Assembly (NCBI RefSeq): GCF_009914755.1 | Contig: NC_060946.1 | Reading direction: 5' to 3' (one strand) | Source of the DNA: the human T2T-CHM13v2.0 reference genome, Homo sapiens | Length of the DNA stretch: 64,000 nucleotides | Shown here: positions 3,010 through 59,800 of the stretch, piece by piece | How the letters are laid out: every line of letters begins with the position of its first letter | Numbering within the stretch: the stretch's first letter is position 1 | The notes under the pieces: generated by a model | Seen by the model: only the letters and a program-made list of their open reading frames with translations | The model's database searches: none | Told to the model about the DNA's origin: nothing | Program-made: the position numbers and the translations under genes

Positions 3010-3015
3010 TTTATT
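3010..3015 (-). terminator. Candidate polyadenylation signal AATAAA for the minus-strand gene ending at 4445
   Basis: TTTATT on + at 3010-3015. On the minus strand it is followed by an A-rich stretch ~20 nt later and then GT-rich gtggtgatgtgtggtc. An alternative AATAAA lies at 3412-3417. Present in every unit. Confidence 0.45.
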
Positions 3016-3354
3016 GAATAAGATTTGCTCACAGAAAAATAAGCTTAAATCTACAATGAATGCCAGACCCTACAGCAGAAAGCAGTTTTCTCACTTTTCC
3101 ACACACAATGGTTCCTACTAAGTGAAAAAAAAAGCCATAAAATTTCATTCACAAATGTACTACTCTGTCTCAAAACATCTCACGAAATCATGCACTGTAC
3201 TAAAGCCATCAGATCAGTTCTTCAGTCAGGTTAAAGAAGTATCCCTCTAATAACTGACTTTTATAATGCTATCAATATCCACTCCCAATCAGTCTGCCAT
3301 TGTTAATGGTGTACAGCATTACTGAATACAACGGAATTGATGACGCCCATATCC

Positions 3355-3425
3355 ACAGACAAACCGTGACTTATGATGGTTTGACTTATGATTTTTCAAC
3401 GTTATGATGGGTTTATTGGAATATT
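3355..3425. mobile_element. Short Tigger/MER47-like DNA transposon remnant
   Basis: gacttatgatggtttgacttatgatttttcaacgttatgatgggtttatt resembles the CpG-decayed MER47/Tigger5 terminal sequence, from recall only. Confidence 0.45.
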
Positions 3426-3710
3426 AGATTCGTTTCTGAGTTACACTGGGTTTATGAGTATGCGACCCTACACTCCAGAAACAGCTGTATAAGGAAAAAC
3501 AGGAGTACCTAATAAAAATATGCTTAGTGACTTGGGATAAACCAATAGATGTTCACAAGTGATGGAGAGCCGTGAAAGAGAGATAGCGGTAAATAGTTAC
3601 AATAACACAATTTTCCTGCACCTGTCGAGGATTTCCCCCAAAAAACGCAGAATGTGGGATGCACCTAAGGCATATGAAAGAGAGAGGGCAGAAGGAGTAA
3701 GAGAGAAATA

Positions 3711-3848
3711 GGAGGAAGGAAGGAAGGAAGGAAGCAATAAGAAAGGAAGGAAAGAAGGAAGGAAGGACGGAAGGAAGGAAGGAAGGAAGGAAGGAAGGAA
3801 GGAAGGAAGGAAGGAAGGAAGGAAGGAAAGAAGGATGAAAGGAAGGAG
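3711..3848. repeat. (GGAA)n purine microsatellite, length-variable between units
   Basis: About 15 uninterrupted GGAA at 3769-3828, versus about 8 at 10247-10278 and about 14 from 23149. Confidence 0.95.
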
Positions 3849-3899
3849 AAAACACCGGTGTTACTAAAACCCCCCAAAAAATGGTTTCCCCCTGTGGGT

Positions 3900-4245
3900 A
3901 AGCCTACAATGTGGATGAATCTTGAAAATATTGTGCTACGTGTTATGTCAGTCATAGCAGCTCACCTATTGTGCAATTCCGTTTATAGGAAATGTCCACA
4001 ATATGGAAATCTATGCATATGGGATTGATCGCACTAGGTAGTTGCTACCTAGGGCTGAGGGTCAGGGAGAGGGTTTGAGACAGAATGAGGAGTGACTAAT
4101 GTCTACAGGGTCTTTCTCTGGTCGGGGGTGATAAGACGTTTTACAATGGATTGCGAATTAAAATTGAATGTGCACAACCACAGGTATACTAAAAGCCACT
4201 CAATTCATGACCTTTAATGGGGGAATCTTACGTGGCGTAGTCTCA
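3900..4245 (+). mobile_element. Old L1MB/L1M-type LINE-1 3' fragment (one per unit)
   Basis: tggatgaatcttgaaaatattgtgcta...tattgtgcaattccgtttataggaaatgtcca...gagtgactaatg...ggggtgataa...tgcacaacc...tatactaaaagccact matches the familiar L1MB 3' end pattern. Confidence 0.75.
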
Positions 4246-4444: not shown

Positions 4445-7400
4445 TCACCGGTAGTGTGGCCCGCAGGGACGCCGACCTGCTGGAGCGTCGTGCCAGCATG
4501 GGCTGTGGCAACCACGTGGGCCAGCAGGAGGTTCCCGCTGCACAGCTGTGGGGTGAGGATAGACTGGGTGGTGATATCGGCCATTACAGGGGCCTCTTCT
4601 GCTGGCAAGAGTGTGACAGTAGCAAGTAGATGGACAGGCCTGCGTGTGAGGATGGAATGCAGGAGGGGTTCTTGTGCGGCTGGGTGTGGGGCCCTCACGG
4701 GAACCGTGGAGAAATGGCCAGGTAACTGCGTCATGTGGGCTAGTAGATTGGCCAGGGCTTCGAACTGAAGGACGATAACGGGGAGTAGCTGTCAGGCCCT
4801 GGGGGTGCCTGAGTGTAAGTGGAGATGGGTTTGGGGTCACTGAGGGATGCGTGGGAGCCATCCCTGTATAGGTACAGGTCATAGGGAGATAGTCTCGTGA
4901 GGCCTGTGAGTGTCTAGGGTTGTCCTGGGTGCCTGGGGCTGACTGTGGCAGAAATCTGGGGAAGGCTGGAGAGAAGCTGGGAGACCCAGGAGAGTCCCTG
5001 AAGGCAGGGGGTGAAGAGGTGAAAGAAATGGGGGAGGGTTGCAGTAAGGTCCGTGAGTTTGTAGGTGATTCCTGGGTGCGGGAAGCTGACTCCAGGTGAA
5101 ATCTGGAGATGGTTGGAGAGTAGCTGAGAGAGACAGAAGAGTCCCTGAGGGCTGGGGGTGAGAACATGAGGGAGACGGGGGAGTAAGTCAGTGAAATTCG
5201 TGAGTTCGGTGGTGTATCGTGGGTGCCTGGAACTGACTCCAGCTGGAATCTAGAGAAGTTTTGAGAGTAGCTGAAGGAGACACAAGAGTCCCTGTGGGCT
5301 GAGGGCAAAGACCTGAGACAGACCAGGGAGGACCTCAGTGAAGTCTGTGAGTCTGTAGGTGATTCCGGAGTGTGGGAGGCTGACTCCCGCTGAAATCTGG
5401 GCGTGGTGGGAGAGTAGCTGGGACAGACAGGAGAGTCCCAGGGGGCTGCGGGTGAAGACGTGAGAGAGACTGGGGAGTAACTCAGTGAAATTGCTGAGTT
5501 GGTTGGTGATACCTGGGTGCCTGGAACTGACCCCCGCTGAAATCTGGGCATGGTTGGAGAGTAGCTGGGACACACAGGAGAGTCCCTGAGGGCTGGGGGT
5601 GAAGACATGAGCGAGACCGGGGAGTAACTGAGTGAAACTGGTGAGTTTGGTGGTGACTCCGGGGTGCCTGGAACTGACTCCAGCTGAAATGTGGGCGTGG
5701 TTGGAGAGTAGCTGGGACAGACAGGAGAGTCCCTGAGGACTGGTGAAGACATGAGAGAGACTGGAGAGTAATTGAGTGAAATTGGTGAGTTTGGTGGTGA
5801 TTCCTGGGTGCCTGGAACTGACTCCCGCTGAAGTGTGGGCATGGTTGGAGAGTAGCTGGGACAGACGGGAGAGTCCCTGAGGGATGGTGAAGACATGAGA
5901 GAGACTGGAGAGTAATTGAGTGAAATTGGTGAGTTTGGTGGTGATTTCTCGGTGCCTGCAACGGACTCCCGCTGAAGTGTGGGCGTGCTTGGAGAGTAGC
6001 TGGGACAGACAGGCGAGTCCCTGAGGGTTGGAGATAAAGACGTGCTAGAGACTGAGGAGTAACTGAGTGAAATTGGTGAGTTTGGTGGTGATTCCGGGGT
6101 GCCTGGAACGGACTCCAGCTGAAATGTGGGCGTGGTTGGAGAGTAGCTGGGACAGACGGGAGAGTCCCTGAGGGATGGTGAAGACATGAGAGAGACTGGG
6201 GAGTAACGCAGTGAAATTGGTGAGTTTGGTGGTGATTTCTGGGTGCCTGCAACGGACTCCCGCTGAAGTGTGGGCGTGCTTGGAGAGTAGCTGGGACAGA
6301 CAGGCGAGTCCCTGAGGGTTGGAGATAAAGACGTGCTGGAGACTGGGGAGTAACTCAGTGAAAGTGGTGGGCTTGGTGGTGATCCCAGGGTTCCTGGAAC
6401 TGACCCGCGCTGAAATGTGGGCGTGGTTGGAGAGTAGCTGGGACAGACTGGAGGGTCCGTAAGGGCTGGGGGTGAAGACGTGAGAGAGACTGGCGAGGAT
6501 CTCACTGAGGTCTGTGAGTTTGTAGGTGTTTCTGGGGTGTGGGGTACAGACTCCCGCTGAAATCTGGGCGTAGTTGGAGAGTAGCTGGGACAGACAGGAG
6601 AGTCATGGGTGGCTGGGGGTGAGCTGCTGGATGATGGCAGTAAGAACATATGGTACATTATTGATGAATGAGGTGACTGTGAAGAATCTCCAGAGGAGGA
6701 CACGGGAGAACACAATGACATGAGTGACTGTCCTGCTTGGTTAGGAAAGGGAAACGTAAAGTTGTGGAATTCTGTTGATGATGGATGTGAGAGTGGTGAA
6801 GCCCTGCGGGATGATGTAGAGGACTTCCACATCCCTGGTGAGGAGCTGCCCCTTGGGTCTGAGTTTCTGGGAGGGGAGAGGGAGAAGCTGGGTGAGGCAG
6901 GCATGAATCTTGAGGAGTCAGGGCTGGGGGACCGCTCATATTCTCCCGAGACCTGTGAGTCTCTGGGGGACTCCTGGGTGCATGGGGCTGACTCCCGCAG
7001 GAACCTGGGGATGGCTGGAGAGTAACTGGGAGCCACAGGAGGGTCCCTGAGGCCTGGGGGTGAAGAGATGCAAGACACAGGGGTGGAGCAGCGTGAGGCT
7101 CGTGAGTTTGTAGGTGATTCCTGGGTGTGGGGGGCTGACTCCAGCTGAAATCTGGGGTTGTTTGGAGAGTAGCTGGGAGACACAGGAGAACCCCCGAGAG
7201 CTGGGGGTGAGCTGCTGGGTGATGGCAGTAAGAACATGTGGTATATTATTGATGAACGTGGGGACTCTGAGGAGTCCTCAGAGGAGGACACAGCAGAGCC
7301 CAATGGCTTCATTGATTGCCCATCACGGTGAGGACAGGGAAATGGGAGCTTGTGGGATTCTGGTGATGACAGAGGTGAGTGTGGTGAAGCCCTAGGGGAT

Positions 7401-7570: not shown

Positions 7571-7645
7571 GATTAGGAAACCTGCAGCTCCCAGGGGCCC
7601 CCACTAATGTTCTAACTCGCAGAAGGAAGGAGTGTGTGTGCGTGT

Positions 7646-7677
<32 letters not shown>

Positions 7678-7885
7678 TTGTGTGTGTGCGGTGTGAGGTA
7701 TGGGCCCCTTAAGGAAATGGAAATCAACCAACCAATGGGACAGACAGACAGACAGACAGACAGAGATTCACTTGCCCAAGTGTTCTGTCCTGTCCTCTGA
7801 ATCCGCTTTCAAGTCGCAAGACGCTGTGAGCTCCAAGTCCACGCAGAGTCCGCCAAACGCTCCGGCCGCTGATCCGCTCCGCGAA

Positions 7886-7957
7886 GATCTGAGTACAGGC
7901 CAGCCAGGGTGGGTTTAAATAGCCTCGGGCGCAGCCTAGCAGCGGAAAGGGCGGAGC
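7886..7957 (-). promoter_or_regulatory. Putative Pol II core promoter, copy 2 (same in all units)
   Basis: TATTTAAA at 7921-7914, Inr TCAGATC at 7892-7886 (A+1 = 7890) and GC box at 7949-7957. Other TATA copies start at 14511, 20816, 27290, 33887, 40484, 47081, 53682 and 60144. Confidence 0.65.
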
Positions 7958-10894
7958 TTCACTCCTCCTTTCCATCAGTCACCCCCAACTTTCCCAGGCT
8001 ACACCTCGTAGGAAACTGTTCTCCTGCTTTGATTTCATGCGCCACCTTTGGGACAATCTAAGAACTTACAGGTTTTCTTGGCCAGATTTATTAGGAATTG
8101 TATGCACTGAAACACTGAAAACCAACTAGTGGTTCTGTGCTTCCCACGTTGTGGTTTTGACACCAGCAGCATCCTTGCCACAATCAAACCCCGGAGATCC
8201 GCAGATCTGTGTTGTAACAAGACCTCCCCCTGACCCTGAAGCATGGCAGTTGAAGAAGTCTTTCCGTGTAAGCGAAAAGACTTTGAAGAAAAGGTGGAGA
8301 TATGCGTTGTATAAACATTCTTTGGCTCTGGAACCACGTAGAGACTTGGGAGCCAGTTGGGTGGAGCATTCGTTGGATGAGGGTGCTCGGGTTAGGAATA
8401 TCAAGGTGTTTCTCCAGATAATCCAATCATCTAATTAAGATTCCAGTTATGCTCATCTGTTTTAAAATTCCGTTTGGGTAAATTCTTTTAGTCAGACTGA
8501 GAATGGCAAAGCCTCAACCCCAATTTCCAGGGAGGGTGGAGAGCCTCAGGTGGAGTTGATCACCAATAGCCTATGGTTTAACCCATCATGCCTATAGAAT
8601 GAGGTCTCCATCAAAACCCAAAAGGACTGGGTTCAGAGAGCTTCTGGATAACACTTCCTGGAAGGTAGTGCACCCCTCCCCGCATGCCGGGCCCCACATT
8701 TATTTCTGAACCTTGTGCAATGTCCGCTAAAATACAACGGCAAATGTAAGTGTTTCCCTGCGTGCTGTGAGCTCTTCCAGCAAATGAATGCAACTAAATC
8801 TGGGAGTGGTGGCAACCTGATTTATAGCCAGTTGCTGAGAAGCACAGGTAAAACAACGTAGGGCTTCCCATTGTTATTGGTGTGGGAGGCCTGTCTGGCG
8901 GGACTCGGCCCTTTGGAATCTAATGCTATGTCCCGGTAGATAGCGTCACCATTGAATTAGAAGACACACATATGTGGAGAATAATCTTTCTGGTCATTTA
9001 CTGCATGTCATATTTACAATATGTAATCAAATTCTTTATCCTGACCTTATGGCACCTGGGTTTAGGACCATGATTTGAACCAAACGTTGGTCTGTCACTT
9101 TCTGAGTTTGAAACTTTATTTTGCCTTTAGCGTTTTGCTATTGCTTTTTCGTTTTCTTTTGTTTCGTTTCGTTTCTAAGTTCTGGGGTATATGTGCAGGA
9201 TGTGCAGATTTGTTACTAAGGTAAACGTGTGCCATGGTGGTTTGCTGCACCTGTCAACCCGTCACCTAGGTATTAAGCCCAGCATGCAGTAGCTGTTTTT
9301 CTTAACGCTCTGCCTCCCGAAAGGCCCCAGTGTGTGTTGTTCCCCTTCCTGTGTCCATGGGATCTCACTTTTCAGCTCCCATTATAAGTGAGAAGGTGGC
9401 GTTTGGTTTTCTTTCCCTGGATTAGTTTGCTGACGATAATGACCACACATCACCACTGTTTTTGTTTTTTAGTATAAAGAGTAGTATTTTATTGAATAAG
9501 ATTTGCTCACAGAAAAATAAGCTTAAATCTACAATGAATGCCAGACCCTACAGCAGAAAGCAATTTTCTCACTTTTCCACACACAATGGTTCCTACTAAG
9601 TGAAAAAAAAGCCATAAAATTTCATTCACAAATGTACTACTCTGTCTCAAAACATCTCACGTAATCATGCACTGTACTAAAGCCATCAGATCAGTTCTTC
9701 AGTCAGGTTAAAGAAGTATCCCTCTAATAACTGACTTTTATAATGCTATCAATATCCACTCCCAATCAGTCTGCCATTGTTAATGGTGTACAGCATTACT
9801 GAATACAACGGAATTGATGACGCCCATATCCACAGACAAACCGTGACTTATGATGGTTTGATTTATGATTTTTCAACGTTATGATGGGTTTATTGGAATA
9901 TTAGATTCGTTTCTGAGTTACACTGGGTTTATGAGTATGCGACCCTACACTCCAGAAACAGCTGTATAAGGAAAAACAGGTGTACCTAATAAAAATATGC
10001 TTAGTGACTTGGGATAAACCAATAGATGTTCACAAGTGATGGAGAGCCGTGAAAGAGAGATAGCGGTAAATAGTTACAATAACACAATTTTCCTGCACCT
10101 GTCGAGGATTTCCCCCAAAAAACGCAGAATGTGGGATGCACCTAAGGCATATGAAAGAGAGAGGGCAGAAGGAGTAAGAGAGAAATAGGAGGAAGGAAGG
10201 AAGGAAGCAAGGAAGAAAGGAAGGAAGGAAAGAAGGAAGGAAGGACGGAAGGAAGGAAGGAAGGAAGGAAGGAAGGAAAGAAGGATGAAAGGAAGGAGAA
10301 AACACCGGTGTTACTAAAACCCCCCAAAAAATGGTTTCCCCCTGTGGGTAAGCCTACAATGTGGATGAATCTTGAAAATATTGTGCTACGTGTTATGTCA
10401 GTCATAGCAGCTCACCTATTGTGCAATTCCGTTTATAGGAAATGTCCACAATATGGAAATCTATGCATATGGGATTGATCGCACTAGGTAGTTGCTACCT
10501 AGGGCTGAGGGTCAGGGAGAGGGTTTGAGACAGAATGAGGAGTGACTAATGTCTACAGGGTCTTTCTCTGGTCGGGGGTGATAAGACGTTTTACAATGGA
10601 TTGCGAATTAAAATTGAATGTGCACAACCACAGGTATACTAAAAGCCACTCAATTCATGACCTTTAATGGGGGAATCTTACGTGGCGTAGTCTCATGGAG
10701 ACCACGGCAGACATAGTGAGAGAGAAAAAGGTGAGTAAATATCTGAAACGGAGGCAGAAACAGAGAGAATGAAAAGCCCTGTGAATGGAAGGGAGAGCGA
10801 AAAGGGAAAATGGTCCTATTTACAAATGACAGATGTGAAACTGGGGTTCACATCAACAGTGTCACTGCCAGGAAGGAGGGTCATGCTAGCCATG

Positions 10895-13800
10895 TCACCG
10901 GTAGTGTGGCCCGCAGGGACGCCGACCTGCTGGAGCGTCGTGCCAGCATGGGCTGTGGCAACCACGTGGGCCAGCAGGAGGTTCCCGCTGCACAGCTGTG
11001 GGGTGAGGATAGACTGGGTGGTGATATCGGCCATTACAGGGGCCTCTTCTGCTGGCAAGAGTGTGACAGTAGCAAGTAGATGGACAGGCCTGCGTGTGAG
11101 GACGGAATGCAGGAGGGGTTCTTGTGCGCCTGGGTGTGGGGCCCTCACGGGAACCGTGGAGAAATGGCCAGGTAACTGCGTCATGTGGGCTAGTAGATTG
11201 GCCAGGGCTTCGAACTGAAGGACGATAATGGGGAGTAGCTGTCAGGCCCTGGGAGTGCCTGAGTGTAAGTGGAGATGGGTTTGGGGTCACTGAGGGATGC
11301 GTGGGAGCCATCCCTGTATAGGTACAGGTCATAGGTAGATAGTCTCGTGAGGCCTGTGAGTGTCTAGGGTTGTCCTGGGTGCCTGGGGCTGACTGTGGCA
11401 GAAATCTGGGGAAGGCTGGAGAGAAGCTGGGAGACCCAGGAGAGTCCCTGAAGGCAGGGGGTGAAGAGGTGAAAGAAATGGGGGAGGGTTGCAGTAAGGT
11501 CCGTGAGTTTGTAGGTGATTCCTGGGTGCGGGAAGCTGACTCCAGGTGAAATCTGGAGATGGTTGGAGAGTAGCTGAGAGAGACAGAAGAGTCCCTGAGG
11601 GCTGGGGGTGAGAACATGAGGGAGACGGGGGAGTAAGTCAGTGAAATTCGTGAGTTCGGTGGTGTATCGTGGGTGCCTGGAACTGACTCCAGCTGGAATC
11701 TAGAGAAGTTTTGAGAGTAGCTGAAGGAGACACAAGAGTCCCTGTGGGCTGAGGGCAAAGACCTGAGACAGACCAGGGAGGACCTCAGTGAAGTCTGTGA
11801 GTCTGTAGGTGATTCCGGAGTGTGGGAGGCTGACTCCCGCTGAAATCTGGGCGTGGTGGGAGAGTAGCTGGGACAGACAGGAGAGTCCCAGGGGGCTGGG
11901 GGTGACGACGTGAGAGAGACTGGGGAGTAACTCAGTGAAATTGCTGAGTTGGTTGGTGATACCTGGGTGCCTGGAACTGACCCCCGCTGAAATCTGGGCA
12001 TGGTTGGAGAGTAGCTGGGACACACAGGAGAGTCCCTGAGGGCTGGGGGTGAAGACATGAGCGAGACCGGGGAGTAACTGAGTGAAACTGGTGAGTTTGG
12101 TGGTGACTCCGGGGTGCCTGGAACTGACTCCAGCTGAAATGTGGGCGTGGTTGGAGAGTAGCTGGGACAGACAGGAGAGTCCCTGAGGACTGGTGAAGAC
12201 ATGAGAGAGACTGGAGAGTAATTGAGTGAAATTGGTGAGTTTGGTGGTGATTCCTGGGTGCCTGGAACTGACTCCCGCTGAAGTGTGGGCGTGGTTGGAG
12301 AGTAGCTGGGACACACAGGAGAGTCCCTGAGGGTTGGAGATAAAGACGTGCTAGAGACTGAGGAGTAACTGAGTGAAATTGGTGAGTTTGGTGGTGATTC
12401 CGGGGTGCCTGGAACGGACTCCAGCTGAAATGTGGGCGTGGTTGGAGAGTAGCTGGGACAGACGGGAGAGTCCCTGAGGAATGGTGAAGACATGAGAGAG
12501 ACTGGGGAGTAACGCAGTGAAATTGGTGAGTTTGGTGGTGATTTCTGGGTGCCTGCAACGGACTCCCGCTGAAGTGTGGGCGTGCTTGGAGAGTAGCTGG
12601 GACAGACAGGCGAGTCCCTGAGGGTTGGAGATAAAGACGTGCTAGAGACTGAGGAGTAACTGAGTGAAATTGGTGAGTTTGGTGGTGATTCCGGGGTGCC
12701 TGGAACGGACTCCAGCTGAAATGTGGGCGTGGTTGGAGAGTAGCTGGGACAGACGGGAGAGTCCCTGAGGGATGGTGAAGACATGAGAGAGACTGGGGAG
12801 TAACGCAGTGAAATTGGTGAGTTTGGTGGTGATTTCTGGGTGCCTGCAACAGACTCCCGCTGAAGTGTGGGCGTGCTTGGAGAGTAGCTGGGACAGACAG
12901 GCGAGTCCCTGAGGGTTGGAGATAAAGACGTGCTGGAGACTGGGGAGTAACTCAGTGAAAGTGGTGGGCTTGGTGGTGATCCCAGGGTTCCTGGAACTGA
13001 CCCGCGCTGAAATGTGGGCGTGGTTGGAGAGTAGCTGGGACAGACTGGAGGGTCCGTAAGGGCTGGGGGTGAAGACGTGAGAGAGACTGGCGAGGATCTC
13101 ACTGAGGTCTGTGAGTTTGTAGGTGTTTCTGGGGTGTGGGGTACAGACTCCCGCTGAAATCTGGGCGTAGTTGGAGAGTAGCTGGGACAGACAGGAGAGT
13201 CATGGGTGGCTGGGGGTGAGCTGCTGGATGATGGCAGTAAGAACATATGGTACATTATTGATGAATGAGGTGACTGTGAAGAATCTCCAGAGGAGGACAC
13301 GGGAGAACACAATGACATGAGTGACTGTCCTGCTTGGTTAGGAAAGGGAAACGTAAAGTTGTGGAATTCTGTTGATGATGGATGTGAGAGTGGTGAAGCC
13401 CTGCGGGATGATGTAGAGGACTTCCACATCCCTGGTGAGGAGCTGCCCCTTGGGTCTGAGTTTCTGGGAGGGGAGAGGGAGAAGCTGGGTGAGGCAGGCA
13501 TGAATCTTGAGGAGTCAGGGCTGGGGGACCGCTCATATTCTCCCGAGACCTGTGAGTCTCTGGGGGACTCCTGGGTGCATGGGGCTGACTCCCGCAGGAA
13601 CCTGGGGTTGGCTGGAGAGTAACTGGGAGCCACAGGAGGGTCCCTGAGGCCTGGGGGTGAAGAGATGCAAGACACAGGGGTGGAGCAGCGTGAGGCTCGT
13701 GAGTTTGTAGGTGATTCCTGGGTGTGGGGGGCTGACTCCAGCTGAAATCTGGGGTTGTTTGGAGAGTAGCTGGGAGACACAGGAGAACCCCCGAGAGCTG

Positions 13801-14167
13801 GGGGTGAGCTGCTGGGTGATGGCAGTAAGAACATGTGGTATATTATTGATGAACGTGGGGACTCTGAGGAGTCCTCAGAGGAGGACACAGCAGAGCCCAA
13901 TGGCTTCATTGATTGCCCATCACGGTGAGGACAGGGAAATGGGAGCTTGTGGGATTCTGGTGATGACAGAGGTGAGTGTGGTGAAGCCCTAGGGGATGGT
14001 GAATGGTAGTTCCGGATCCCTGGTGAGGAGCTTCCCCTTAAGCCGGAGTTTCTGAGAGGGGAGAGGGAGAAGCTGGGTGAGGCTCGCATGGACCTTGGGG
14101 TGTCCGTGCTGGGGGACCGTTCATAAGAAGAGCCAGACAAGACCCTACTGTTCTTAGGTGCAGACAT
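10895..14167 (-). CDS. Ser/Pro-rich repeat protein, 1090 aa variant
   Basis: Intact ORF, 49 aa longer than the 1041 aa form, with 12 PSYSP motifs. Confidence 0.65.
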   Translation of the reverse strand: MSAPKNSRVLSGSSYERSPSTDTPRSMRASPSFSLSPLRNSGLRGSSSPGIRNYHSPSPRASPHSPLSSPESHKLPFPCPHRDGQSMKPLGSAVSSSEDSSESPRSSIIYHMFLLPSPSSSPPALGGSPVSPSYSPNNPRFQLESAPHTQESPTNSRASRCSTPVSCISSPPGLRDPPVAPSYSPANPRFLRESAPCTQESPRDSQVSGEYERSPSPDSSRFMPASPSFSLSPPRNSDPRGSSSPGMWKSSTSSRRASPLSHPSSTEFHNFTFPFPNQAGQSLMSLCSPVSSSGDSSQSPHSSIMYHMFLLPSSSSSPPATHDSPVCPSYSPTTPRFQRESVPHTPETPTNSQTSVRSSPVSLTSSPPALTDPPVCPSYSPTTPTFQRGSVPGTLGSPPSPPLSLSYSPVSSTSLSPTLRDSPVCPSYSPSTPTLQRESVAGTQKSPPNSPISLRYSPVSLMSSPSLRDSPVCPSYSPTTPTFQLESVPGTPESPPNSPISLSYSSVSSTSLSPTLRDSPVCPSYSPSTPTLQRESVAGTQKSPPNSPISLRYSPVSLMSSPFLRDSPVCPSYSPTTPTFQLESVPGTPESPPNSPISLSYSSVSSTSLSPTLRDSPVCPSYSPTTPTLQRESVPGTQESPPNSPISLNYSPVSLMSSPVLRDSPVCPSYSPTTPTFQLESVPGTPESPPNSPVSLSYSPVSLMSSPPALRDSPVCPSYSPTMPRFQRGSVPGTQVSPTNSAISLSYSPVSLTSSPPAPWDSPVCPSYSPTTPRFQRESASHTPESPTDSQTSLRSSLVCLRSLPSAHRDSCVSFSYSQNFSRFQLESVPGTHDTPPNSRISLTYSPVSLMFSPPALRDSSVSLSYSPTISRFHLESASRTQESPTNSRTLLQPSPISFTSSPPAFRDSPGSPSFSPAFPRFLPQSAPGTQDNPRHSQASRDYLPMTCTYTGMAPTHPSVTPNPSPLTLRHSQGLTATPHYRPSVRSPGQSTSPHDAVTWPFLHGSREGPTPRRTRTPPAFRPHTQACPSTCYCHTLASRRGPCNGRYHHPVYPHPTAVQREPPAGPRGCHSPCWHDAPAGRRPCGPHYR

Positions 14168-17491: not shown

Positions 17492-20470
17492 TCACCGGTA
17501 GTGTGGCCCGCAGGGACGCCGACCTGCTGGAGCGTCGTGCCAGCATGGGCTGTGGCAACCACGTGGGCCAGCAGGAGGTTCCCGCTGCACAGCTGTGGGG
17601 TGAGGATAGACTGGGTGGTGATATCGGCCATTACAGGGGCCTCTTCTGCTGGCAAGAGTGTGACAGTAGCAAGTAGATGGACAGGCCTGCGTGTGAGGAC
17701 GGAATGCAGGAGGGGTTCTTGTGCGCCTGGGTGTGGGGCCCTCACGGGAACCGTGGAGAAATGGCCAGGTAACTGCGTCATGTGGGCTAGTAGATTGGCC
17801 AGGGCTTCGAACTGAAGGACGATAACGGGGAGTAGCTGTCAGGCCCTGGGAGTGCCTGAGTGTAAGTGGAGATGGGTTTGGGGTCACTGAGGGATGCGTG
17901 GGAGCCATCCCTGTATAGGTACAGGTCATAGGGAGATAGTCTCGTGAGGCCTGTGAGTGTCTAGGGTTGTCCTGGGTGCCTGGGGCTGACTGTGGCAGAA
18001 ATCTGGGGAAGGCTGGAGAGAAGCTGGGAGACCCAGGAGAGTCCCTGAAGGCAGGGGGTGAAGAGGTGAAAGAAATGGGGGAGGGTTGCAGTAAGGTCCG
18101 TGAGTTTGTAGGTGATTCCTGGGTGCGGGAAGCTGACTCCAGGTGAAATCTGGAGATGGTTGGAGAGTAGCTGAGAGAGACAGAAGAGTCCCTGAGGGCT
18201 GGGGGTGAGAACATGAGGGAGACGGGGGAGTAAGTCAGTGAAATTCGTGAGCTCGGTGGTGTATCGTGGGTGCCTGGAACTGACTCCAGCTGGAATCTAG
18301 AGAAGTTTTGAGAGTAGCTGAAGGAGACACAAGAGTCCCTGTGGGCTGAGGGCAAAGACCTGAGACAGACCAGGGAGGACCTCAGTGAAGTCTGTGAGTC
18401 TGTAGGTGATTCCGGAGTGTGGGAGGCTGACTCCCGCTGAAATATGGGCGTGGTGGGAGAGTAGCTGGGACAGACAGGAGAGTCCCTGAGGACTGGTGAA
18501 GACATGAGAGAGACTGGAGAGTAATTGAGTGAAATTGGTGAGTTTGGTGGTGATTCCTGGGTGCCTGGAACTGACTCCCGCTGAAGTGTGGGCATGGTTG
18601 GAGAGTAGCTGGGACACACAGGAGAGTCCCTGAGGGTTGGAGATAAAGACGTGCTAGAGACTGAGGAGTAACTGAGTGAAATTGGTGAGTTTGGTGGTGA
18701 TTCCGGGGTGCCTGGAACGGACTCCAGCTGAAATGTGGGCGTGGTTGGAGAGTAGCTGGGACAGACGGGAGAGTCCCTGAGGGATGGTGAAGACATGAGA
18801 GAGACTGGGGAGTAACGCAGTGAAATTGGTGAGTTTGGTGGTGATTTCTGGGTGCCTGCAACGGACTCCCGCTGAAGTGTGGGCGTGCTTGGAGAGTAGC
18901 TGGGACAGACAGGCGAGTCCCTGAGGGTTGGAGATAAAGACGTGCTAGAGACTGAGGAGTAACTGAGTGAAATTGGTGAGTTTGGTGGTGATTCCGGGGT
19001 GCCTGGAACGGACTCCAGCTGAAATGTGGGCGTGGTTGGAGAGTAGCTGGGACAGACGGGAGAGTCCCTGAGGGATGGTGAAGACATGAGAGAGACTGGG
19101 GAGTAACGCAGTGAAATTGGTGAGTTTGGTGGTGATTTCTGGGTGCCTGCAACGGACTCCCGCTGAAGTGTGGGCGTGCTTGGAGAGTAGCTGGGACAGA
19201 CAGGCGAGTCCCTGAGGGTTGGAGATAAAGACGTGCTGGAGACTGGGGAGTAACTCAGTGAAAGTGGTGGGCTTGGTGGTGATCCCAGGGTTCCTGGAAC
19301 TGACCCGCGCTGAAATGTGGGCGTGGTTGGAGAGTAGCTGGGACAGACTGGAGGGTCCGTAAGGGCTGGGGGTGAAGACGTGAGAGAGACTGGCGAGGAT
19401 CTCACTGAGGTCTGTGAGTTTGTAGGTGTTTCTGGGGTGTGGGGTACAGACTCCCGCTGAAATCTGGGCGTAGTTGGAGAGTAGCTGGGACAGACAGGAG
19501 AGTCATGGGTGGCTGGGGGTGAGCTGCTGGATGATGGCAGTAAGAACATATGGTACATTATTGATGAATGAGGTGACTGTGAAGAATCTCCAGAGGAGGA
19601 CACGGGAGAACACAATGACATGAGTGACTGTCCTGCTTGGTTAGGAAAGGGAAACGTAAAGTTGTGGAATTCTGTTGATGATGGATGTGAGAGTGGTGAA
19701 GCCCTGCGGGATGATGTAGAGGACTTCCACATCCCTGGTGAGGAGCTGCCCCTTGGGTCTGAGTTTCTGGGAGGGGAGAGGGAGAAGCTGGGTGAGGCAG
19801 GCATGAATCTTGAGGAGTCAGGGCTGGGGGACCGCTCATATTCTCCCGAGACCTGTGAGTCTCTGGGGGACTCCTGGGTGCATGGGGCTGACTCCCGCAG
19901 GAACCTGGGGATGGCTGGAGAGTAACTGGGAGCCACAGGAGGGTCCCTGAGGCCTGGGGGTGAAGAGATGCAAGACACAGGGGTGGAGCAGCGTGAGGCT
20001 CGTGAGTTTGTAGGTGATTCCTGGGTGTGGGGGGCTGACTCCAGCTGAAATCTGGGGTTGTTTGGAGAGTAGCTGGGAGACACAGGAGAACCCCCGAGAG
20101 CTGGGGGTGAGCTGCTGGGTGATGGCAGTAAGAACATGTGGTATATTATTGATGAACGTGGGGACTCTGAGGAGTCCTCAGAGGAGGACACGGCAGAGCC
20201 CAATGGCTTCATTGATTGCCCATCACGGTGAGGACAGGGAAATGGGAGCTTGTGGGATTCTGGTGATGACAGAGGTGAGTGTGGTGAAGCCCTAGGGGAT
20301 GGTGAATGGTAGTTCCGGATCCCTGGTGAGGAGCTTCCCCTTAAGCCGGAGTTTCTGAGAGGGGAGAGGGAGAAGCTGGGTGAGGCTCGCATGGACCTTG
20401 GGGTGTCCGTGCTGGGGGACCGTTCATAAGAAGAGCCAGACAAGACCCTACTGTTCTTAGGTGCAGACAT
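17492..20470 (-). CDS. Ser/Pro-rich repeat protein, 992 aa variant
   Basis: Intact ORF, 98 aa shorter than the 1090 aa form, with 10 PSYSP motifs. Confidence 0.65.
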   Translation of the reverse strand: MSAPKNSRVLSGSSYERSPSTDTPRSMRASPSFSLSPLRNSGLRGSSSPGIRNYHSPSPRASPHSPLSSPESHKLPFPCPHRDGQSMKPLGSAVSSSEDSSESPRSSIIYHMFLLPSPSSSPPALGGSPVSPSYSPNNPRFQLESAPHTQESPTNSRASRCSTPVSCISSPPGLRDPPVAPSYSPAIPRFLRESAPCTQESPRDSQVSGEYERSPSPDSSRFMPASPSFSLSPPRNSDPRGSSSPGMWKSSTSSRRASPLSHPSSTEFHNFTFPFPNQAGQSLMSLCSPVSSSGDSSQSPHSSIMYHMFLLPSSSSSPPATHDSPVCPSYSPTTPRFQRESVPHTPETPTNSQTSVRSSPVSLTSSPPALTDPPVCPSYSPTTPTFQRGSVPGTLGSPPSPPLSLSYSPVSSTSLSPTLRDSPVCPSYSPSTPTLQRESVAGTQKSPPNSPISLRYSPVSLMSSPSLRDSPVCPSYSPTTPTFQLESVPGTPESPPNSPISLSYSSVSSTSLSPTLRDSPVCPSYSPSTPTLQRESVAGTQKSPPNSPISLRYSPVSLMSSPSLRDSPVCPSYSPTTPTFQLESVPGTPESPPNSPISLSYSSVSSTSLSPTLRDSPVCPSYSPTMPTLQRESVPGTQESPPNSPISLNYSPVSLMSSPVLRDSPVCPSYSPTTPIFQRESASHTPESPTDSQTSLRSSLVCLRSLPSAHRDSCVSFSYSQNFSRFQLESVPGTHDTPPSSRISLTYSPVSLMFSPPALRDSSVSLSYSPTISRFHLESASRTQESPTNSRTLLQPSPISFTSSPPAFRDSPGSPSFSPAFPRFLPQSAPGTQDNPRHSQASRDYLPMTCTYTGMAPTHPSVTPNPSPLTLRHSQGLTATPRYRPSVRSPGQSTSPHDAVTWPFLHGSREGPTPRRTRTPPAFRPHTQACPSTCYCHTLASRRGPCNGRYHHPVYPHPTAVQREPPAGPRGCHSPCWHDAPAGRRPCGPHYR

Positions 20471-23820: not shown

Positions 23821-26800
23821 TCACCGGTAGTGTGGCCCGCAGGGACGCCGACCTGCTGGAGCGTCGTGCCAGCATGGGCTGTGGCAACCACGTGGGCCAG
23901 CAGGAGGTTCCCGCTGCACAGCTGTGGGGTGAGGATAGACTGGGTGGTGATATCGGCCATTACAGGGGCCTCTTCTGCTGGCAAGAGTGTGACAGTAGCA
24001 AGTAGATGGACAGGCCTGCGTGTGAGGATGGAATGCAGGAGGGGTTCTTGTGCGGCTGGGTGTGGGGCCCTCACGGGAACCGTGGAGAAATGGCCAGGTA
24101 ACTGCGTCATGTGGGCTAGTAGATTGGCCAGGGCTTCGAACTGAAGGACGATAACGGGGAGTAGCTGTCAGGCCCTGGGGGTGCCTGAGTGTAAGTGGAG
24201 ATGGGTTTGGGGTCACTGAGGGATGCGTGGGAGCCATCCCTGTATAGGTACAGGTCATAGGGAGATAGTCTCGTGAGGCCTGTGAGTGTCTAGGGTTGTC
24301 CTGGGTGCCTGGGGCTGACTGTGGCAGAAATCTGGGGAAGGCTGGAGAGAAGCTGGGAGACCCAGGAGAGTCCCTGAAGGCAGGGGGTGAAGAGGTGAAA
24401 GAAATGGGGGAGGGTTGCAGTAAGGTCCGTGAGTTTGTAGGTGATTCCTGGGTGCGGGAAGCTGACTCCAGGTGAAATCTGGAGATGGTTGGAGAGTAGC
24501 TGAGAGAGACAGAAGAGTCCCTGAGGGCTGGGGGTGAGAACATGAGGGAGACGGGGGAGTAAGTCAGTGAAATTCGTGAGTTCGGTGGTGTATCGTGGGT
24601 GCCTGGAACTGACTCCAGCTGGAATCTAGAGAAGTTTTGAGAGTAGCTGAAGGAGACACAAGAGTCCCTGTGGGCTGAGGGCAAAGACCTGAGACAGACC
24701 AGGGAGGACCTCAGTGAAGTCTGTGAGTCTGTAGGTGATTCCGGAGTGTGGGAGGCTGACTCCCGCTGAAATCTGGGCGTGGTGGGAGAGTAGCTGGGAC
24801 AGACAGGAGAGTCCCAGGGGGCTGGGGGTGAAGACGTGAGAGAGACTGGGGAGTAACTCAGTGAAATTGCTGAGTTGGTTGGTGATACCTGGGTGCCTGG
24901 AACTGACCCCCGCTGAAATCTGGGCATGGTTGGAGAGTAGCTGGGACACACAGGAGAGTCCCTGAGGGCTGGGGGTGAAGACATGAGCGAGACCGGGGAG
25001 TAACTGAGTGAAACTGGTGAGTTTGGTGGTGACTCCGGGGTGCCTGGAACTGACTCCAGCTGAAATGTGGGCGTGGTTGGAGAGTAGCTGGGACAGACAG
25101 GAGAGTCCCTGAGGACTGGTGAAGACATGAGAGAGACTGGAGAGTAATTGAGTGAAATTGGTGAGTTTGGTGGTGATTCCTGGGTGCCTGGAACTGACTC
25201 CCGCTGAAGTGTGGGCATGGTTGGAGAGTAGCTGGGACAGACGGGAGAGTCCCTGAGGGATGGTGAAGACATGAGAGAGACTGGAGAGTAATTGAGTGAA
25301 ATTGGTGAGTTTGGTGGTGATTTCTCGGTGCCTGCAACGGACTCCCGCTGAAGTGTGGGCGTGCTTGGAGAGTAGCTGGGACAGACAGGCGAGTCCCTGA
25401 GGGTTGGAGATAAAGACGTGCTAGAGACTGAGGAGTAACTGAGTGAAATTGGTGAGTTTGGTGGTGATTCCGGGGTGCCTGGAACGGACTCCAGCTGAAA
25501 TGTGGGCGTGGTTGGAGAGTAGCTGGGACAGACGGGAGAGTCCCTGAGGGATGGTGAAGACATGAGAGAGACTGGGGAGTAACGCAGTGAAATTGGTGAG
25601 TTTGGTGGTGATTTCTGGGTGCCTGCAACGGACTCCCGCTGAAGTGTGGGCGTGCTTGGAGAGTAGCTGGGACAGACCGGCGAGTCCCTGAGGGTTGGAG
25701 ATAAAGACGTGCTGGAGACTGGGGAGTAACTCAGTGAAAGTGGTGGGCTTGGTGGTGATCCCAGGGTTCCTGGAACTGACCCGCGCTGAAATGTGGGCGT
25801 GGTTGGAGAGTAGCTGGGACAGACTGGAGGGTCCGTAAGGGCTGGGGGTGAAGACGTGAGAGAGACTGGCGAGGATCTCACTGAGGTCTGTGAGTTTGTA
25901 GGTGTTTCTGGGGTGTGGGGTACAGACTCCCGCTGAAATCTGGGCGTAGTTGGAGAGTAGCTGGGACAGACAGGAGAGTCATGGGTGGCTGGGGGTGAGC
26001 TGCTGGATGATGGCAGTAAGAACATATGGTACATTATTGATGAATGAGGTGACTGTGAAGAATCTCCAGAGGAGGACACGGGAGAACACAATGACATGAG
26101 TGACTGTCCTGCTTGGTTAGGAAAGGGAAACGTAAAGTTGTGGAATTCTGTTGATGATGGATGTGAGAGTGGTGAAGCCCTGCGGGATGATGTAGAGGAC
26201 TTCCACATCCCTGGTGAGGAGCTGCCCCTTGGGTCTGAGTTTCTGGGAGGGGAGAGGGAGAAGCTGGGTGAGGCAGGCATGAATCTTGAGGAGTCAGGGC
26301 TGGGGGACCGCTCATATTCTCCCGAGACCTGTGAGTCTCTGGGGGACTCCTGGGTGCATGGGGCTGACTCCCGCAGGAACCTGGGGATGGCTGGAGAGTA
26401 ACTGGGAGCCACAGGAGGGTCCCTGAGGCCTGGGGGTGAAGAGATGCAAGACACAGGGGTGGAGCAGCGTGAGGCTCGTGAGTTTGTAGGTGATTCCTGG
26501 GTGTGGGGGGCTGACTCCAGCTGAAATCTGGGGTTGTTTGGAGAGTAGCTGGGAGACACAGGAGAACCCCCGAGAGCTGGGGGTGAGCTGCTGGGTGATG
26601 GCAGTAAGAACATGTGGTATATTATTGATGAACGTGGGGACTCTGAGGAGTCCTCAGAGGAGGACACAGCAGAGCCCAATGGCTTCATTGATTGCCCATC
26701 ACGGTGAGGACAGGGAAATGGGAGCTTGTGGGATTCTGGTGATGACAGAGGTGAGTGTGGTGAAGCCCTAGGGGATGGTGAATGGTAGTTCCGGATCCCT

Positions 26801-56674: not shown

Positions 56675-59600
56675 TCACCGGTAGTGTGGCCCGCAGGGAC
56701 GCCGACCTGCTGGAGCGTCGTGCCAGCATGGGCTGTGGCAACCACGTGGGCCAGCAGGAGGTTCCCGCTGCACAGCTGTGGGGTGAGGATAGACTGGGTG
56801 GTGATATCGGCCATTACAGGGGCCTCTTCTGCTGGCAAGAGTGTGACAGTAGCAAGTAGATGGACAGGCCTGCGTGTGAGGATGGAATGCAGGAGGGGTT
56901 CTTGTGCGGCTGGGTGTGGGGCCCTCACGGGAACCGTGGAGAAATGGCCAGGTAACTGCGTCATGTGGGCTAGTAGATTGGCCAGGGCTTCGAACTGAAG
57001 GACGATAACGGGGAGTAGCTGTCAGGCCCTGGGGGTGCCTGAGTGTAAGTGGAGATGGGTTTGGGGTCACTGAGGGATGCGTGGGAGCCATCCCTGTATA
57101 GGTACAGGTCATAGGGAGATAGTCTCGTGAGGCCTGTGAGTGTCTAGGGTTGTCCTGGGTGCCTGGGGCTGACTGTGGCAGAAATCTGGGGAAGGCTGGA
57201 GAGAAGCTGGGAGACCCAGGAGAGTCCCTGAAGGCAGGGGGTGAAGAGGTGAAAGAAATGGGGGAGGGTTGCAGTAAGGTCCGTGAGTTTGTAGGTGATT
57301 CCTGGGTGCGGGAAGCTGACTCCAGGTGAAATCTGGAGATGGTTGGAGAGTAGCTGAGAGAGACAGAAGAGTCCCTGAGGGCTGGGGGTGAGAACATGAG
57401 GGAGACGGGGGAGTAAGTCAGTGAAATTCGTGAGTTCGGTGGTGTATCGTGGGTGCCTGGAACTGACTCCAGCTGGAATCTAGAGAAGTTTTGAGAGTAG
57501 CTGAAGGAGACACAAGAGTCCCTGTGGGCTGAGGGCAAAGACCTGAGACAGACCAGGGAGGACCTCAGTGAAGTCTGTGAGTCTGTAGGTGATTCCGGAG
57601 TGTGGGAGGCTGACTCCCGCTGAAATCTGGGCGTGGTGGGAGAGTAGCTGGGACAGACAGGAGAGTCCCAGGGGGCTGGGGGTGAAGACGTGAGAGAGAC
57701 TGGGGAGTAACTCAGTGAAATTGCTGAGTTGGTTGGTGATACCTGGGTGCCTGGAACTGACCCCCGCTGAAATCTGGGCATGGTTGGAGAGTAGCTGGGA
57801 CACACAGGAGAGTCCCTGAGGGCTGGGGGTGAAGACATGAGCGAGACCGGGGAGTAACTGAGTGAAACTGGTGAGTTTGGTGGTGACTCCGGGGTGCCTG
57901 GAACTGACTCCAGCTGAAATGTGGGCGTGGTTGGAGAGTAGCTGGGACAGACAGGAGAGTCCCTGAGGACTGGTGAAGACATGAGAGAGACTGGAGAGTA
58001 ATTGAGTGAAATTGGTGAGTTTGGTGGTGATTCCTGGGTGCCTGGAACTGACTCCCGCTGAAGTGTGGGCATGGTTGGAGAGTAGCTGGGACAGACGGGA
58101 GAGTCCCTGAGGGATGGTGAAGACATGAGAGAGACTGGAGAGTAATTAAGTGAAATTGGTGAGTTTGGTGGTGATTTCTCGGTGCCTGCAACGGACTCCC
58201 GCTGAAGTGTGGGCGTGCTTGGAGAGTAGCTGGGACAGACAGGCGAGTCCCTGAGGGTTGGAGATAAAGATGTGCTAGAGACTGAGGAGTAACTGAGTGA
58301 AATTGGTGAGTTTGGTGGTGATTCCGGGGTGCCTGGAACGGACTCCAGCTGAAATGTAGGCGTGGTTGGAGAGTAGCTGGGACAGACGGGAGAGTCCCTG
58401 AGGGATGGTGAAGACATGAGAGAGACTGGGGAGTAACGCAGTTAAATTGGTGAGTTTGGTGGTGATTTCTGGGTGCCTGCAACGGACTCCCGCTGAAGTG
58501 TGGGCGTGCTTGGAGAGTAGCTGGGACAGACAGGCGAGTCCCTGAGGGTTGGAGATAAAGACGTGCTGGAGACTGGGGAGTAACTCAGTGAAAGTGGTGG
58601 GCTTGGTGGTGATCCCAGGGTTCCTGGAACTGACCCGCGCTGAAATGTGGGCGTGGTTGGAGAGTAGCTGGGACAGACTGGAGGGTCCGTAAGGGCTGGG
58701 GGTGAAGACGTGAGAGAGACTGGCGAGGATCTCACTGAGGTCTGTGAGTTTGTAGGTGTTTCTGGGGTGTGGGGTACAGACTCCCGCTGAAATCTGGGCG
58801 TAGTTGGAGAGTAGCTGGGACAGACAGGAGAGTCATGGGTGGCTGGGGGTGAGCTGCTGGATGATGGCAGTAAGAACATATGGTACATTATTGATGAATG
58901 AGGTGACTGTGAAGAATCTCCAGAGGAGGACACGGGAGAACACAATGACATGAGTGACTGTCCTGCTTGGTTAGGAAAGGGAAACGTAAAGTTGTGGAAT
59001 TCTGTTGATGATGGATGTGAGAGTGGTGAAGCCCTGCGGGATGATGTAGAGGACTTCCACATCCCTGGTGAGGAGCTGCCCCTTGGGTCTGAGTTTCTGG
59101 GAGGGGAGAGGGAGAAGCTGGGTGAGGCAGGCATGAATCTTGAGGAGTCAGGGCTGGGGGACCGCTCATATTCTCCCGAGACCTGTGAGTCTCTGGGGGA
59201 CTCCTGGGTGCATGGGGCTGACTCCCGCAGGAACCTGGGGTTGGCTGGAGAGTAATTGGGAGCCACAGGAGGGTCCCTGAGGCCTGGGGGTGAAGAGATG
59301 CAAGACACAGGGGTGGAGCAGCGTGAGGCTCGTGAGTTTGTAGGTGATTCCTGGGTGTGGGGGGCTGACTCCAGCTGAAATCTGGGGTTGTTTGGAGAGT
59401 AGCTGGGAGACACAGGAGAACCCCCGAGAGCTGGGGGTGAGCTGCTGGGTGATGGCAGTAAGAACATGTGGTATATTATTGATGAACGTGGGGACTCTGA
59501 GGAGTCCTCAGAGGAGGACACAGCAGAGCCCAATGGCTTCATTGATTGCCCATCACGGTGAGGACAGGGAAATGGGAGCTTGTGGGATTCTGGTGATGAC

Positions 59601-59800
59601 AGAGGTGAGTGTGGTGAAGCCCTAGGGGATGGTGAATGGTAGTTCCGGATCCCTGGTGAGGAGCTTCCTCTTAAGCCGGAGTTTCTGAGAGGGGAGAGGG
59701 AGAAGCTGGGTGAGGCTCGCATGGACCTTGGGGTGTCCGTGCTGGGGGACCGTTCATAAGAAGAGCCAGACAAGACCCTACTGTTCTTAGGTGCAGACAT
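56675..59800 (-). pseudogene. 1041-codon-class copy with a premature stop (TCA>TAA, S453*)
   Basis: The + strand reads gttaaattgg at 58441 where other copies read gtgaaattgg. This splits the ORF into in-frame pieces of 452 aa and 580 aa. Confidence 0.65.

What the first reader, a model, noticed from the sequence alone, without database searches (positions are those of the whole stretch)
8419..8429. DUX4 consensus site ~530 bp upstream of each TSS: candidate embryonic genome activation gene array
Seen: TAATCCAATCA, followed by a further TAATTA homeobox core, occurs in every unit. Known: DUX4 binds TAAYBBAATCA and drives cleavage-stage genes. As I recall, ACRO1 and HSATII satellite RNAs are reported as cleavage-stage and DUX4-induced. 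Inference: the reported ACRO1 'satellite RNA' may be the mRNA of this gene. That would make a CTD-like protein a high-copy DUX4 target at zygotic genome activation, and possibly in FSHD muscle and DUX4-positive tumours.
Basis: partly seen in the sequence, partly recalled or inferred. Interest (0 to 1): 0.75.

Follow-up and report, generated by a model that had tools for sequence, protein, structure and literature searches.

The report
DUX4-driven hidden gene in ACRO satellite
A human repeat long filed as non-coding satellite DNA holds about 200 copies of an unannotated gene-like unit with a DUX4 binding sequence ahead of a 1,000-codon reading frame that has relatives in marmoset and rabbit, so it is likely a protein-coding gene switched on when the early embryo first activates its genome.

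Summary
Observation confirmed. TAATCCAATCA is in 10 of 10 units, 529-539 bp upstream of a predicted TATA/initiator start. The units are 99.4-100% identical, so this is one event (chance 0.5-2.4%). The window is the known ACRO composite. DUX4 induction of ACRO1 RNA, its 4-cell peak and the CTD-like translation are published.

Added here: (1) published DUX4 ChIP-seq peaks map onto the homologous site in three dispersed copies, while the ACRO1 satellite itself is unbound (1.1x) yet its poly(A) RNA rises 15.8x; (2) the site lies outside the unit's LTR fragment; (3) the minus-strand frame (992-1090 aa, intact in 8 of 9 complete units) has homologs in marmoset, titi monkey and rabbit, two labelled RPB1, sharing a C-terminal Cys/His motif; (4) an intact 358-aa single copy on chr2 carries the bound site.

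Against: no strand, ribosome or peptide data seen; RNA change at the peaks is not significant; weak amino-acid constraint; no perfect heptad; TAATTA is not a DUX4 site. Verdict: likely a real DUX4-responsive multicopy gene; translation and function unproven.

The parts
8419..8429 (+). DUX4 consensus site (CC flavour); same site at 1941, 15016, 21321, 27795, 34392, 40989, 47586, 54187, 60649
   Evidence: flavour tested in PMC4730607; ChIP-seq peaks on homologous sites elsewhere
8432..8437 (.). TAATTA homeodomain core; not a DUX4 site by itself
   Evidence: PMC4730607
8384..8394 (-). degenerate inverted second DUX4-like site (2 mismatches here; perfect in one chr19 copy, 1 mismatch in two chr2:132.7 Mb copies)
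7949..7954 (.). GC box
7914..7921 (-). TATA box; its 14-base context is invariant in the window and 4 dispersed copies
7776..7890 (-). predicted non-coding exon 1, from an initiator-consensus A at 7890
   Evidence: inferred, no RNA data
7612..7775 (-). predicted short 5' UTR intron; donor is GC in the array and the chr2:161.7 Mb copy, GT in three other dispersed copies; no ATG between 7571 and 7895, so splicing is not needed to reach the start codon
4445..7570 (-). open reading frame, 1041 aa; also 10895-14167, 17492-20470, 23821-26946, 30271-33543, 36868-40140, 43465-46737, 50066-53338 (992-1090 aa)
   Evidence: homologs
4923..6622 (-). 147/144-bp tandem array (ACRO1 satellite) lying inside the frame as 49/48-codon repeats
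   Evidence: name from PMC7714431
4448..4801 (-). C-terminal region with the Cys/His motif shared with marmoset, titi monkey and rabbit proteins
3010..4218 (-). candidate 3' UTR with poly(A) signals at 4218 (ATTAAA), 3417 and 3015 (AATAAA)
   Evidence: use not shown
8500..8970 (+). truncated LTR fragment (MER21B by the published make-up of ACRO); starts about 70-85 bp beyond the DUX4 site
   Evidence: family name from 10.64898/2025.12.22.696095
56675..59800 (-). ninth complete unit: frame interrupted by a stop at codon 453

Best explanation
Each ACRO unit is likely a compact RNA polymerase II gene in which DUX4 would bind the site at -530 and switch on a polyadenylated minus-strand mRNA, predicted to encode a disordered Ser/Pro-rich protein at embryonic genome activation. 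Shown here: the site, TATA spacing, an open frame in 8 of 9 complete units, homologs to rabbit, and DUX4 peaks on homologous sites. Published: ACRO1 RNA rises with DUX4 and at the 4-cell stage. Inferred: that this site drives that RNA, that the RNA runs on the minus strand, and that it is translated. About 200 near-identical promoters would offset the weakness of a single site. For the protein I commit to a phospho-scaffold: 114 Ser/Thr-Pro sites and repeated YSP words would bind proline-directed kinases and readers of the polymerase tail, anchored by a conserved, possibly metal-binding, Cys/His C-terminus. Odds: DUX4 drives the RNA about 0.75; it is translated about 0.55-0.6; the protein acts on CTD machinery about 0.2.
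For: Site in 10 of 10 units, 173 of 176 exact-flank copies and 5 of 6 diverged dispersed copies examined first, plus a seventh found later. The difference between array and old copies falls on the degenerate position. Young 2013 Table S1: peak hg19 chr2:162,137,020-400 (height 151) maps on the site of the chr2:161.74 Mb copy; 5 of 5 neighbouring peaks gave a site with at most 1 mismatch at offsets 398,153-398,266, bracketing 398,203. Two more peaks map at one identical offset on two further copies. Table S2: ACRO1 0 peaks, ChIP reads 1.1x, poly(A) RNA 15.8x, as expected of a promoter 1.8 kb outside the satellite. 4-cell peak; low in germ and somatic cells, higher in early embryo (PMC5832720). 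Coding frame has no internal stop against 12 and 18 in the other minus frames and 50-100 in plus frames; repeat spacings are all multiples of 3. Marmoset 832-aa model shares the start and near-end, 72-73% identity outside repeats; neutral simulation to that identity gives about 8 stops in 526 codons, P(0) about 3e-4. Rabbit model shares the Cys/His motif (17 of 25, pairwise E 2e-9) and has no match to the RPB1 body. By hand count, 94 of 114 C-terminal matches in the genome lie in open frames of 793 codons or more. Intact 358-aa copy on chr2, 98% identical to an intact 361-aa protein from another assembly.
Against: No stranded RNA, 5'-end, ribosome or peptide data were seen. DUX4 has 63,795 peaks; RNA within 1 kb of the mapped peaks is not significantly changed (log2 2.62, FDR 0.87; infinite, FDR 0.62; one 'not expressed'). 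No peak could be checked on the chr22 array itself. One site is weak and CT is the best flavour. Motif conservation in five aligned copies (10 of 11 columns against 902 of 1146 overall) is not significant by itself; one old copy has lost it. dN/dS against human paralogs is 0.55-1.59 in 9 comparisons, and several paralogs are broken; gene conversion can keep frames open. The marmoset model seems to run off-frame for some 60 residues (read by eye) and is an automatic prediction. Sense ACRO1 repeats block elongation in reporters and no stable RNA was found in HeLa. The donor is GC in the array. No entry near the predicted starts in the Tohonen 2015 supplements. No perfect heptad; YSP words are absent in rabbit.
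Confidence: 0.6

Rival explanations
1. DUX4 does drive the unit, but the product that matters is the RNA (polymerase-binding, self-limiting, or organising heterochromatin near rDNA); the array frame is an inherited relic kept open by homogenisation.
For: ACRO1 RNA binds Pol II and blocks elongation in cis (PMC7714431); dN/dS near 1 in the C-terminal part; ACRO sits distal to rDNA on acrocentrics.
Against: The frame is open from one start codon in human and marmoset, with a motif kept to rabbit; repeat spacings keep frame; fully transcribed poly(A) RNA was stable in the same paper.
Confidence: 0.17
2. The gene is real but only the short dispersed copy (358 aa, chr2:161.74 Mb) or a few copies function; the arrays are amplified passengers.
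For: The chr2 copy is intact, has the bound site and the same layout as two proteins from other assemblies; many dispersed long copies are broken.
Against: Most array copies are open; the short copy has almost no ACRO1 array, so it explains the 15.8x ACRO1 signal poorly; its own RNA change was not significant; marmoset and rabbit have repeat-expanded forms.
Confidence: 0.12
3. DUX4 binding is incidental; ACRO1 RNA comes from read-through, loss of methylation or the LTR fragment on the plus strand.
For: DUX4 binds 63,795 places; ACRO1 is hypomethylated in FSHD-model cells and sperm lineage; MER21B RNA rises 2.3x and 77 of 2797 copies are bound; no strand data seen.
Against: The site lies outside LTR homology and 0 of 8 dispersed LTR copies carry the consensus; Table S1 calls the peaks 'Unique'; the TATA, initiator and poly(A) signals all face the minus strand.
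Confidence: 0.11

Closest known systems
ACRO composite / ACRO1 satellite (PMC7714431; 10.1101/2021.07.12.451456; 10.64898/2025.12.22.696095)
   Same: About 6 kb unit with a 147-bp array, LTR and LINE pieces, arrayed on acrocentric short arms; CTD-like translation noted.
   Different: Those papers, in the parts read, treat it as a primate-specific repeat or RNA aptamer. Here it has promoter anatomy, one long frame, a rabbit homolog and a bound DUX4 site outside the satellite.
Direct DUX4 cleavage-stage targets in multicopy families (ZSCAN4, PRAMEF, TRIM43/49, RFPL, KHDC1L; names, partly recalled)
   Same: Consensus site near a promoter, induction by DUX4, expression at 4-cell stage, fast-evolving paralogs.
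   Different: About 200 copies, one strong site rather than several, unannotated, no protein shown.
Gene-bearing macrosatellites such as D4Z4-DUX4 and RS447-USP17 (recalled)
   Same: One gene per tandem unit, concerted evolution.
   Different: The coding region itself contains the inner satellite, and arrays lie on several chromosomes.
RPB1 (POLR2A) C-terminal domain
   Same: Ser/Pro/Thr-rich; 49-residue unit equals 7 x 7, with Tyr spaced 28 and 21 (or 20) apart; 18 of 21 repeat-region Tyr words match 4-5 of 7 heptad positions.
   Different: No perfect heptad, Tyr 3% against 13%, no polymerase body, no Pfam match. Database labels 'RPB1' on the marmoset and rabbit models appear to be automatic mislabels.

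Membership tests
ACRO composite | about 6 kb tandem unit with 147-bp inner array and LTR piece on acrocentric short arms | tested here: met
direct DUX4 target gene | consensus site near the promoter | tested here: met
direct DUX4 target gene | DUX4 occupancy of the site | tested here: met
   met for three dispersed homologous sites; the chr22 array copies could not be checked in hg19 peaks
direct DUX4 target gene | RNA induced by DUX4 | tested here: inconclusive
   family-level 15.8x, but locus-level changes not significant and strand unknown
direct DUX4 target gene | induction depends on the site | not testable with these tools
   needs a reporter or editing
protein-coding gene | frame kept open beyond neutral expectation | tested here: met
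   caveat: annotation picks open copies, only proteins (not DNA) of other species were held
protein-coding gene | dN/dS clearly below 1 | tested here: inconclusive
   0.55-1.03 (N-terminal, 4 pairs) and 0.76-1.59 (C-terminal, 5 pairs) against human paralogs, several broken
protein-coding gene | translation shown | not testable with these tools
   no ribosome or peptide data available
RPB1 / CTD | tandem YSPTSPS heptads and polymerase domains | tested here: not met
   0 perfect heptads, no Pfam match, no match of the rabbit model to the RPB1 body
LTR-derived DUX4 promoter | site lies inside the LTR | tested here: not met
   LTR homology starts about 70-85 bp beyond the site; 0 of 8 dispersed copies hold the consensus

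The most novel reading that the evidence does not exclude
ACRO is a roughly 200-copy protein-coding gene family, at least as old as the primate-rabbit split, whose ape arrays gained many YSP words and now supply a DUX4-triggered burst of a polymerase-tail decoy that tunes transcription at embryonic genome activation, and is re-expressed in FSHD muscle.
Probability: 0.2. Interest if true: 0.93.

Novelty: new variant of a known kind. Interest (0 to 1): 0.78.

Why it matters
The distal acrocentric arms carry no annotated gene in this window, and ACRO is reported as the most acrocentric-specific repeat in great apes with unknown function. If it is a gene, it would be among the highest-copy human protein-coding families, would explain the DUX4-induced and 4-cell 'satellite RNA', and would add a copy-number-variable candidate to embryo activation, FSHD and Robertsonian-translocation biology. 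The intact single copy on chr2 makes the question testable with ordinary unique-read data.

Tried and rejected
Counting 10 matches as strong enrichment: rejected, the units are near-identical. TAATTA as a second DUX4 site: rejected. LTR origin of the site: rejected within the reach of 8 dispersed copies. RPB1 membership: rejected. Pfam and solved structures: no match. AlphaFold2 on the 358-aa form with 6 sequences: mean pLDDT 39, no residue at 70 or above; fits disorder but the alignment is too shallow to judge the C-terminus, so no fold search was run. ESM Atlas gave no answer. Hendrickson 2017 is not held; its ACRO1 claims are taken from three citing papers. Young 2013 Table S1 is cut before chr19, so the chr19 copies were not checked. 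Two chr4 peaks match ACRO sites by spacing only (12,434 against 12,435 bp) and are not counted as mapped; a third chr4 peak (height 207, 0 motifs) is unexplained. Tohonen 2015 supplements: no hit at the coordinate prefixes tried. The tables of PMC12057663 and two of PMC8990217 could not be read and may hold long-read or 5'-end evidence. No shuffle test of the 49-residue unit against the CTD was completed, so CTD likeness beyond composition rests on PMC7714431 and the counts.

Full report
Observation. The 11-mer is at 8419-8429 and in all 10 units. The units are 6.3-6.6 kb and 99.4-100% identical, so the ten matches are one event; a single unit holds such a site in 24 of 1000 shuffles, the upstream kilobase in 5 of 1000. 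A minus-strand TATA at 7921 and an initiator A at 7890 put the site at -529 to -539 of a predicted start. Genome-wide 173 of 176 exact-flank copies keep the consensus and 230 copies match with up to two flank mismatches.

Identity. The window is the ACRO composite: a 147-bp inner array in a unit with arrays seen on chr3, 4, 13, 14, 15, 21 and 22, as described in PMC7714431 (parts 1-3 of 5 read), 10.64898/2025.12.22.696095 (passages) and 10.1101/2021.07.12.451456 (passages).

Gene anatomy. Each unit has a minus-strand frame of 992-1090 aa; 8 of 9 complete units are open and one has a stop at codon 453. The other two minus frames hold 12 and 18 stops, the plus frames 50-100; one alternative frame stays open for 339 codons, so part of the openness is compositional. 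Repeat spacings are all multiples of three. A short 5' UTR intron is predicted; its donor is GC in the array and GT in three of four dispersed copies, and no upstream ATG makes splicing necessary. Poly(A) signals follow the stop.

Homologs. A marmoset model (832 aa, labelled RPB1) starts at the same codon and ends near the same place, 72-73% identical outside the repeats. Neutral simulation to that identity (25 runs per setting, no indels) gives about 8 stops in 526 codons; the caveat is that annotation selects open copies. A rabbit model (575 aa, labelled RPB1) shares the C-terminal Cys/His motif and does not match the RPB1 body; by eye its N-terminal repeats also have a 49-residue period. 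Two adjacent titi monkey models carry the motif. This contradicts, at protein level, the statement in PMC7714431 that no non-primate homolog exists. A dispersed human copy at G000:C2:161.74 Mb has an intact 358-aa short form, matched by an intact 361-aa protein (98%) and a 355-aa protein (45%) from unnamed records. That it lies next to PSMD14 is recalled, not shown. Amino-acid constraint is weak: dN/dS 0.55-1.59 in 9 paralog comparisons. No Pfam family, solved structure or confident fold was found.

The site's origin. Five of six diverged copies first examined (86-95% identical around the promoter) keep a perfect consensus, TAATTCAATCA, differing from the array only at the degenerate position; one chr19 copy lost it and aligns only from window 7857. 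This conservation is not significant alone (10 of 11 columns against 902 of 1146). Homology to 8 dispersed LTR copies begins no nearer than about window 8500 and none holds the consensus, so the site is not detectably LTR-derived.

DUX4 evidence. PMC4730607 (passages) tested this flavour: all four flavours bind and compete equally, CT is the strongest activator, one site is weak, orientation does not matter, and TAATTA is not bound. In PMC3836709 (passages; Table S1 one part and search hits, file cut; Table S2 two rows) a peak at hg19 chr2:162,137,020-400 maps on the site of the intact chr2 copy: 5 of 5 neighbouring peaks gave sites (3 perfect, 2 with one mismatch) at offsets 398,153-398,266 around 398,203, against 0 perfect sites in 10 kb of control DNA. 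Two further peaks map at the same offset, 321,219, on perfect sites of two copies at chr2:132.72 Mb. Reads from other copies may add to these peaks; either way the bound DNA is this site family. Table S2 gives ACRO1 no peaks, 1.1x ChIP reads and 15.8x poly(A) RNA: the satellite is transcribed but not bound, as expected if it is the body of a gene whose promoter lies 1.8 kb away. Against this, RNA near the mapped peaks is not significantly changed, and DUX4 has 63,795 peaks. ACRO1 RNA peaks at the 4-cell stage (PMC6545021, passages), rises in early embryos (PMC5832720, one passage), and is cited as DUX4-induced in PMC12776069, PMC8990217 and PMC11467316 (passages); the source paper, Hendrickson 2017, was not seen. 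PMC4569847 was searched in its supplements only, without a hit; PMC12057663 and 10.1101/123208 (passages) do not mention ACRO1.

Mechanism. Most likely DUX4 binds at -530 of many copies, a TATA promoter fires on the minus strand, and a poly(A) mRNA runs through the ACRO1 repeats (about 0.75). Translation is likely but unshown (about 0.55-0.6). The product would be disordered, with 114 Ser/Thr-Pro sites and 20 YSP words but no perfect heptad. YSP words number 5 in marmoset, 0 in rabbit and 1 in the short forms, so CTD likeness is a late feature of the ape arrays, while the Cys/His end is the old one. A role as scaffold or decoy for CTD kinases and readers is my best guess (about 0.2). Rivals are a functional RNA, a passenger array around one working copy, and incidental binding.

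Novelty. Known: the repeat, its DUX4 induction, its 4-cell expression, its CTD-like translation. Not found in print in searches (open-access library only; 32 of 38 ACRO1 papers listed, most seen as listing only): ACRO as a protein-coding gene array, a non-primate homolog, the intact chr2 copy, or the upstream site as the cause of induction. It works like the known DUX4-driven multicopy embryo genes; it is not RPB1. Verdict: observation confirmed, interpretation partly supported and now directly testable; new variant of a known kind; interest 0.78.

Noticed in passing
L033:1000-2076 (G000:C2:161.74 Mb): Intact 358-aa single-copy paralog without the inner array, with TATA and a DUX4-bound site; uniquely mappable test locus.
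   Followed up: yes
L037:1716-1761 (G000:C19:47.23 Mb): Two perfect DUX4 sites in inverted orientation about 35 bp apart; the array keeps a 2-mismatch relic at window 8384-8394. This copy's frame is shifted at codon 81.
   Followed up: partly
G000:C19:47.23-47.29 Mb (L032, L034, L037, L039, L048): Three diverged copies, two tandem and one inverted, with the LTR 3' end that the array units have lost; a candidate ancestral locus. Synteny not tested.
   Followed up: partly
window 7775-7770: Predicted splice donor is GC in the arrays and the chr2:161.7 Mb copy but GT in three older copies.
   Followed up: partly
window 8970: Array units lack about 900 bp (LTR end and Alu-like pieces) present at this point in the chr2:132.7 Mb copy L038.
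   Followed up: partly
window 56675-59800: One of nine complete units carries a stop at codon 453.
   Followed up: no
P0005, P0033: Marmoset and rabbit models of this family are labelled 'DNA-directed RNA polymerase II subunit RPB1' in public databases, which hides the family.
   Followed up: yes
window 3713-3847 and each unit: A long GGAA/AGGA repeat in every unit; papers on Ewing sarcoma appear in the ACRO1 listing, and GGAA repeats are EWS-FLI1 sites, so a second route of activation is possible.
   Followed up: no
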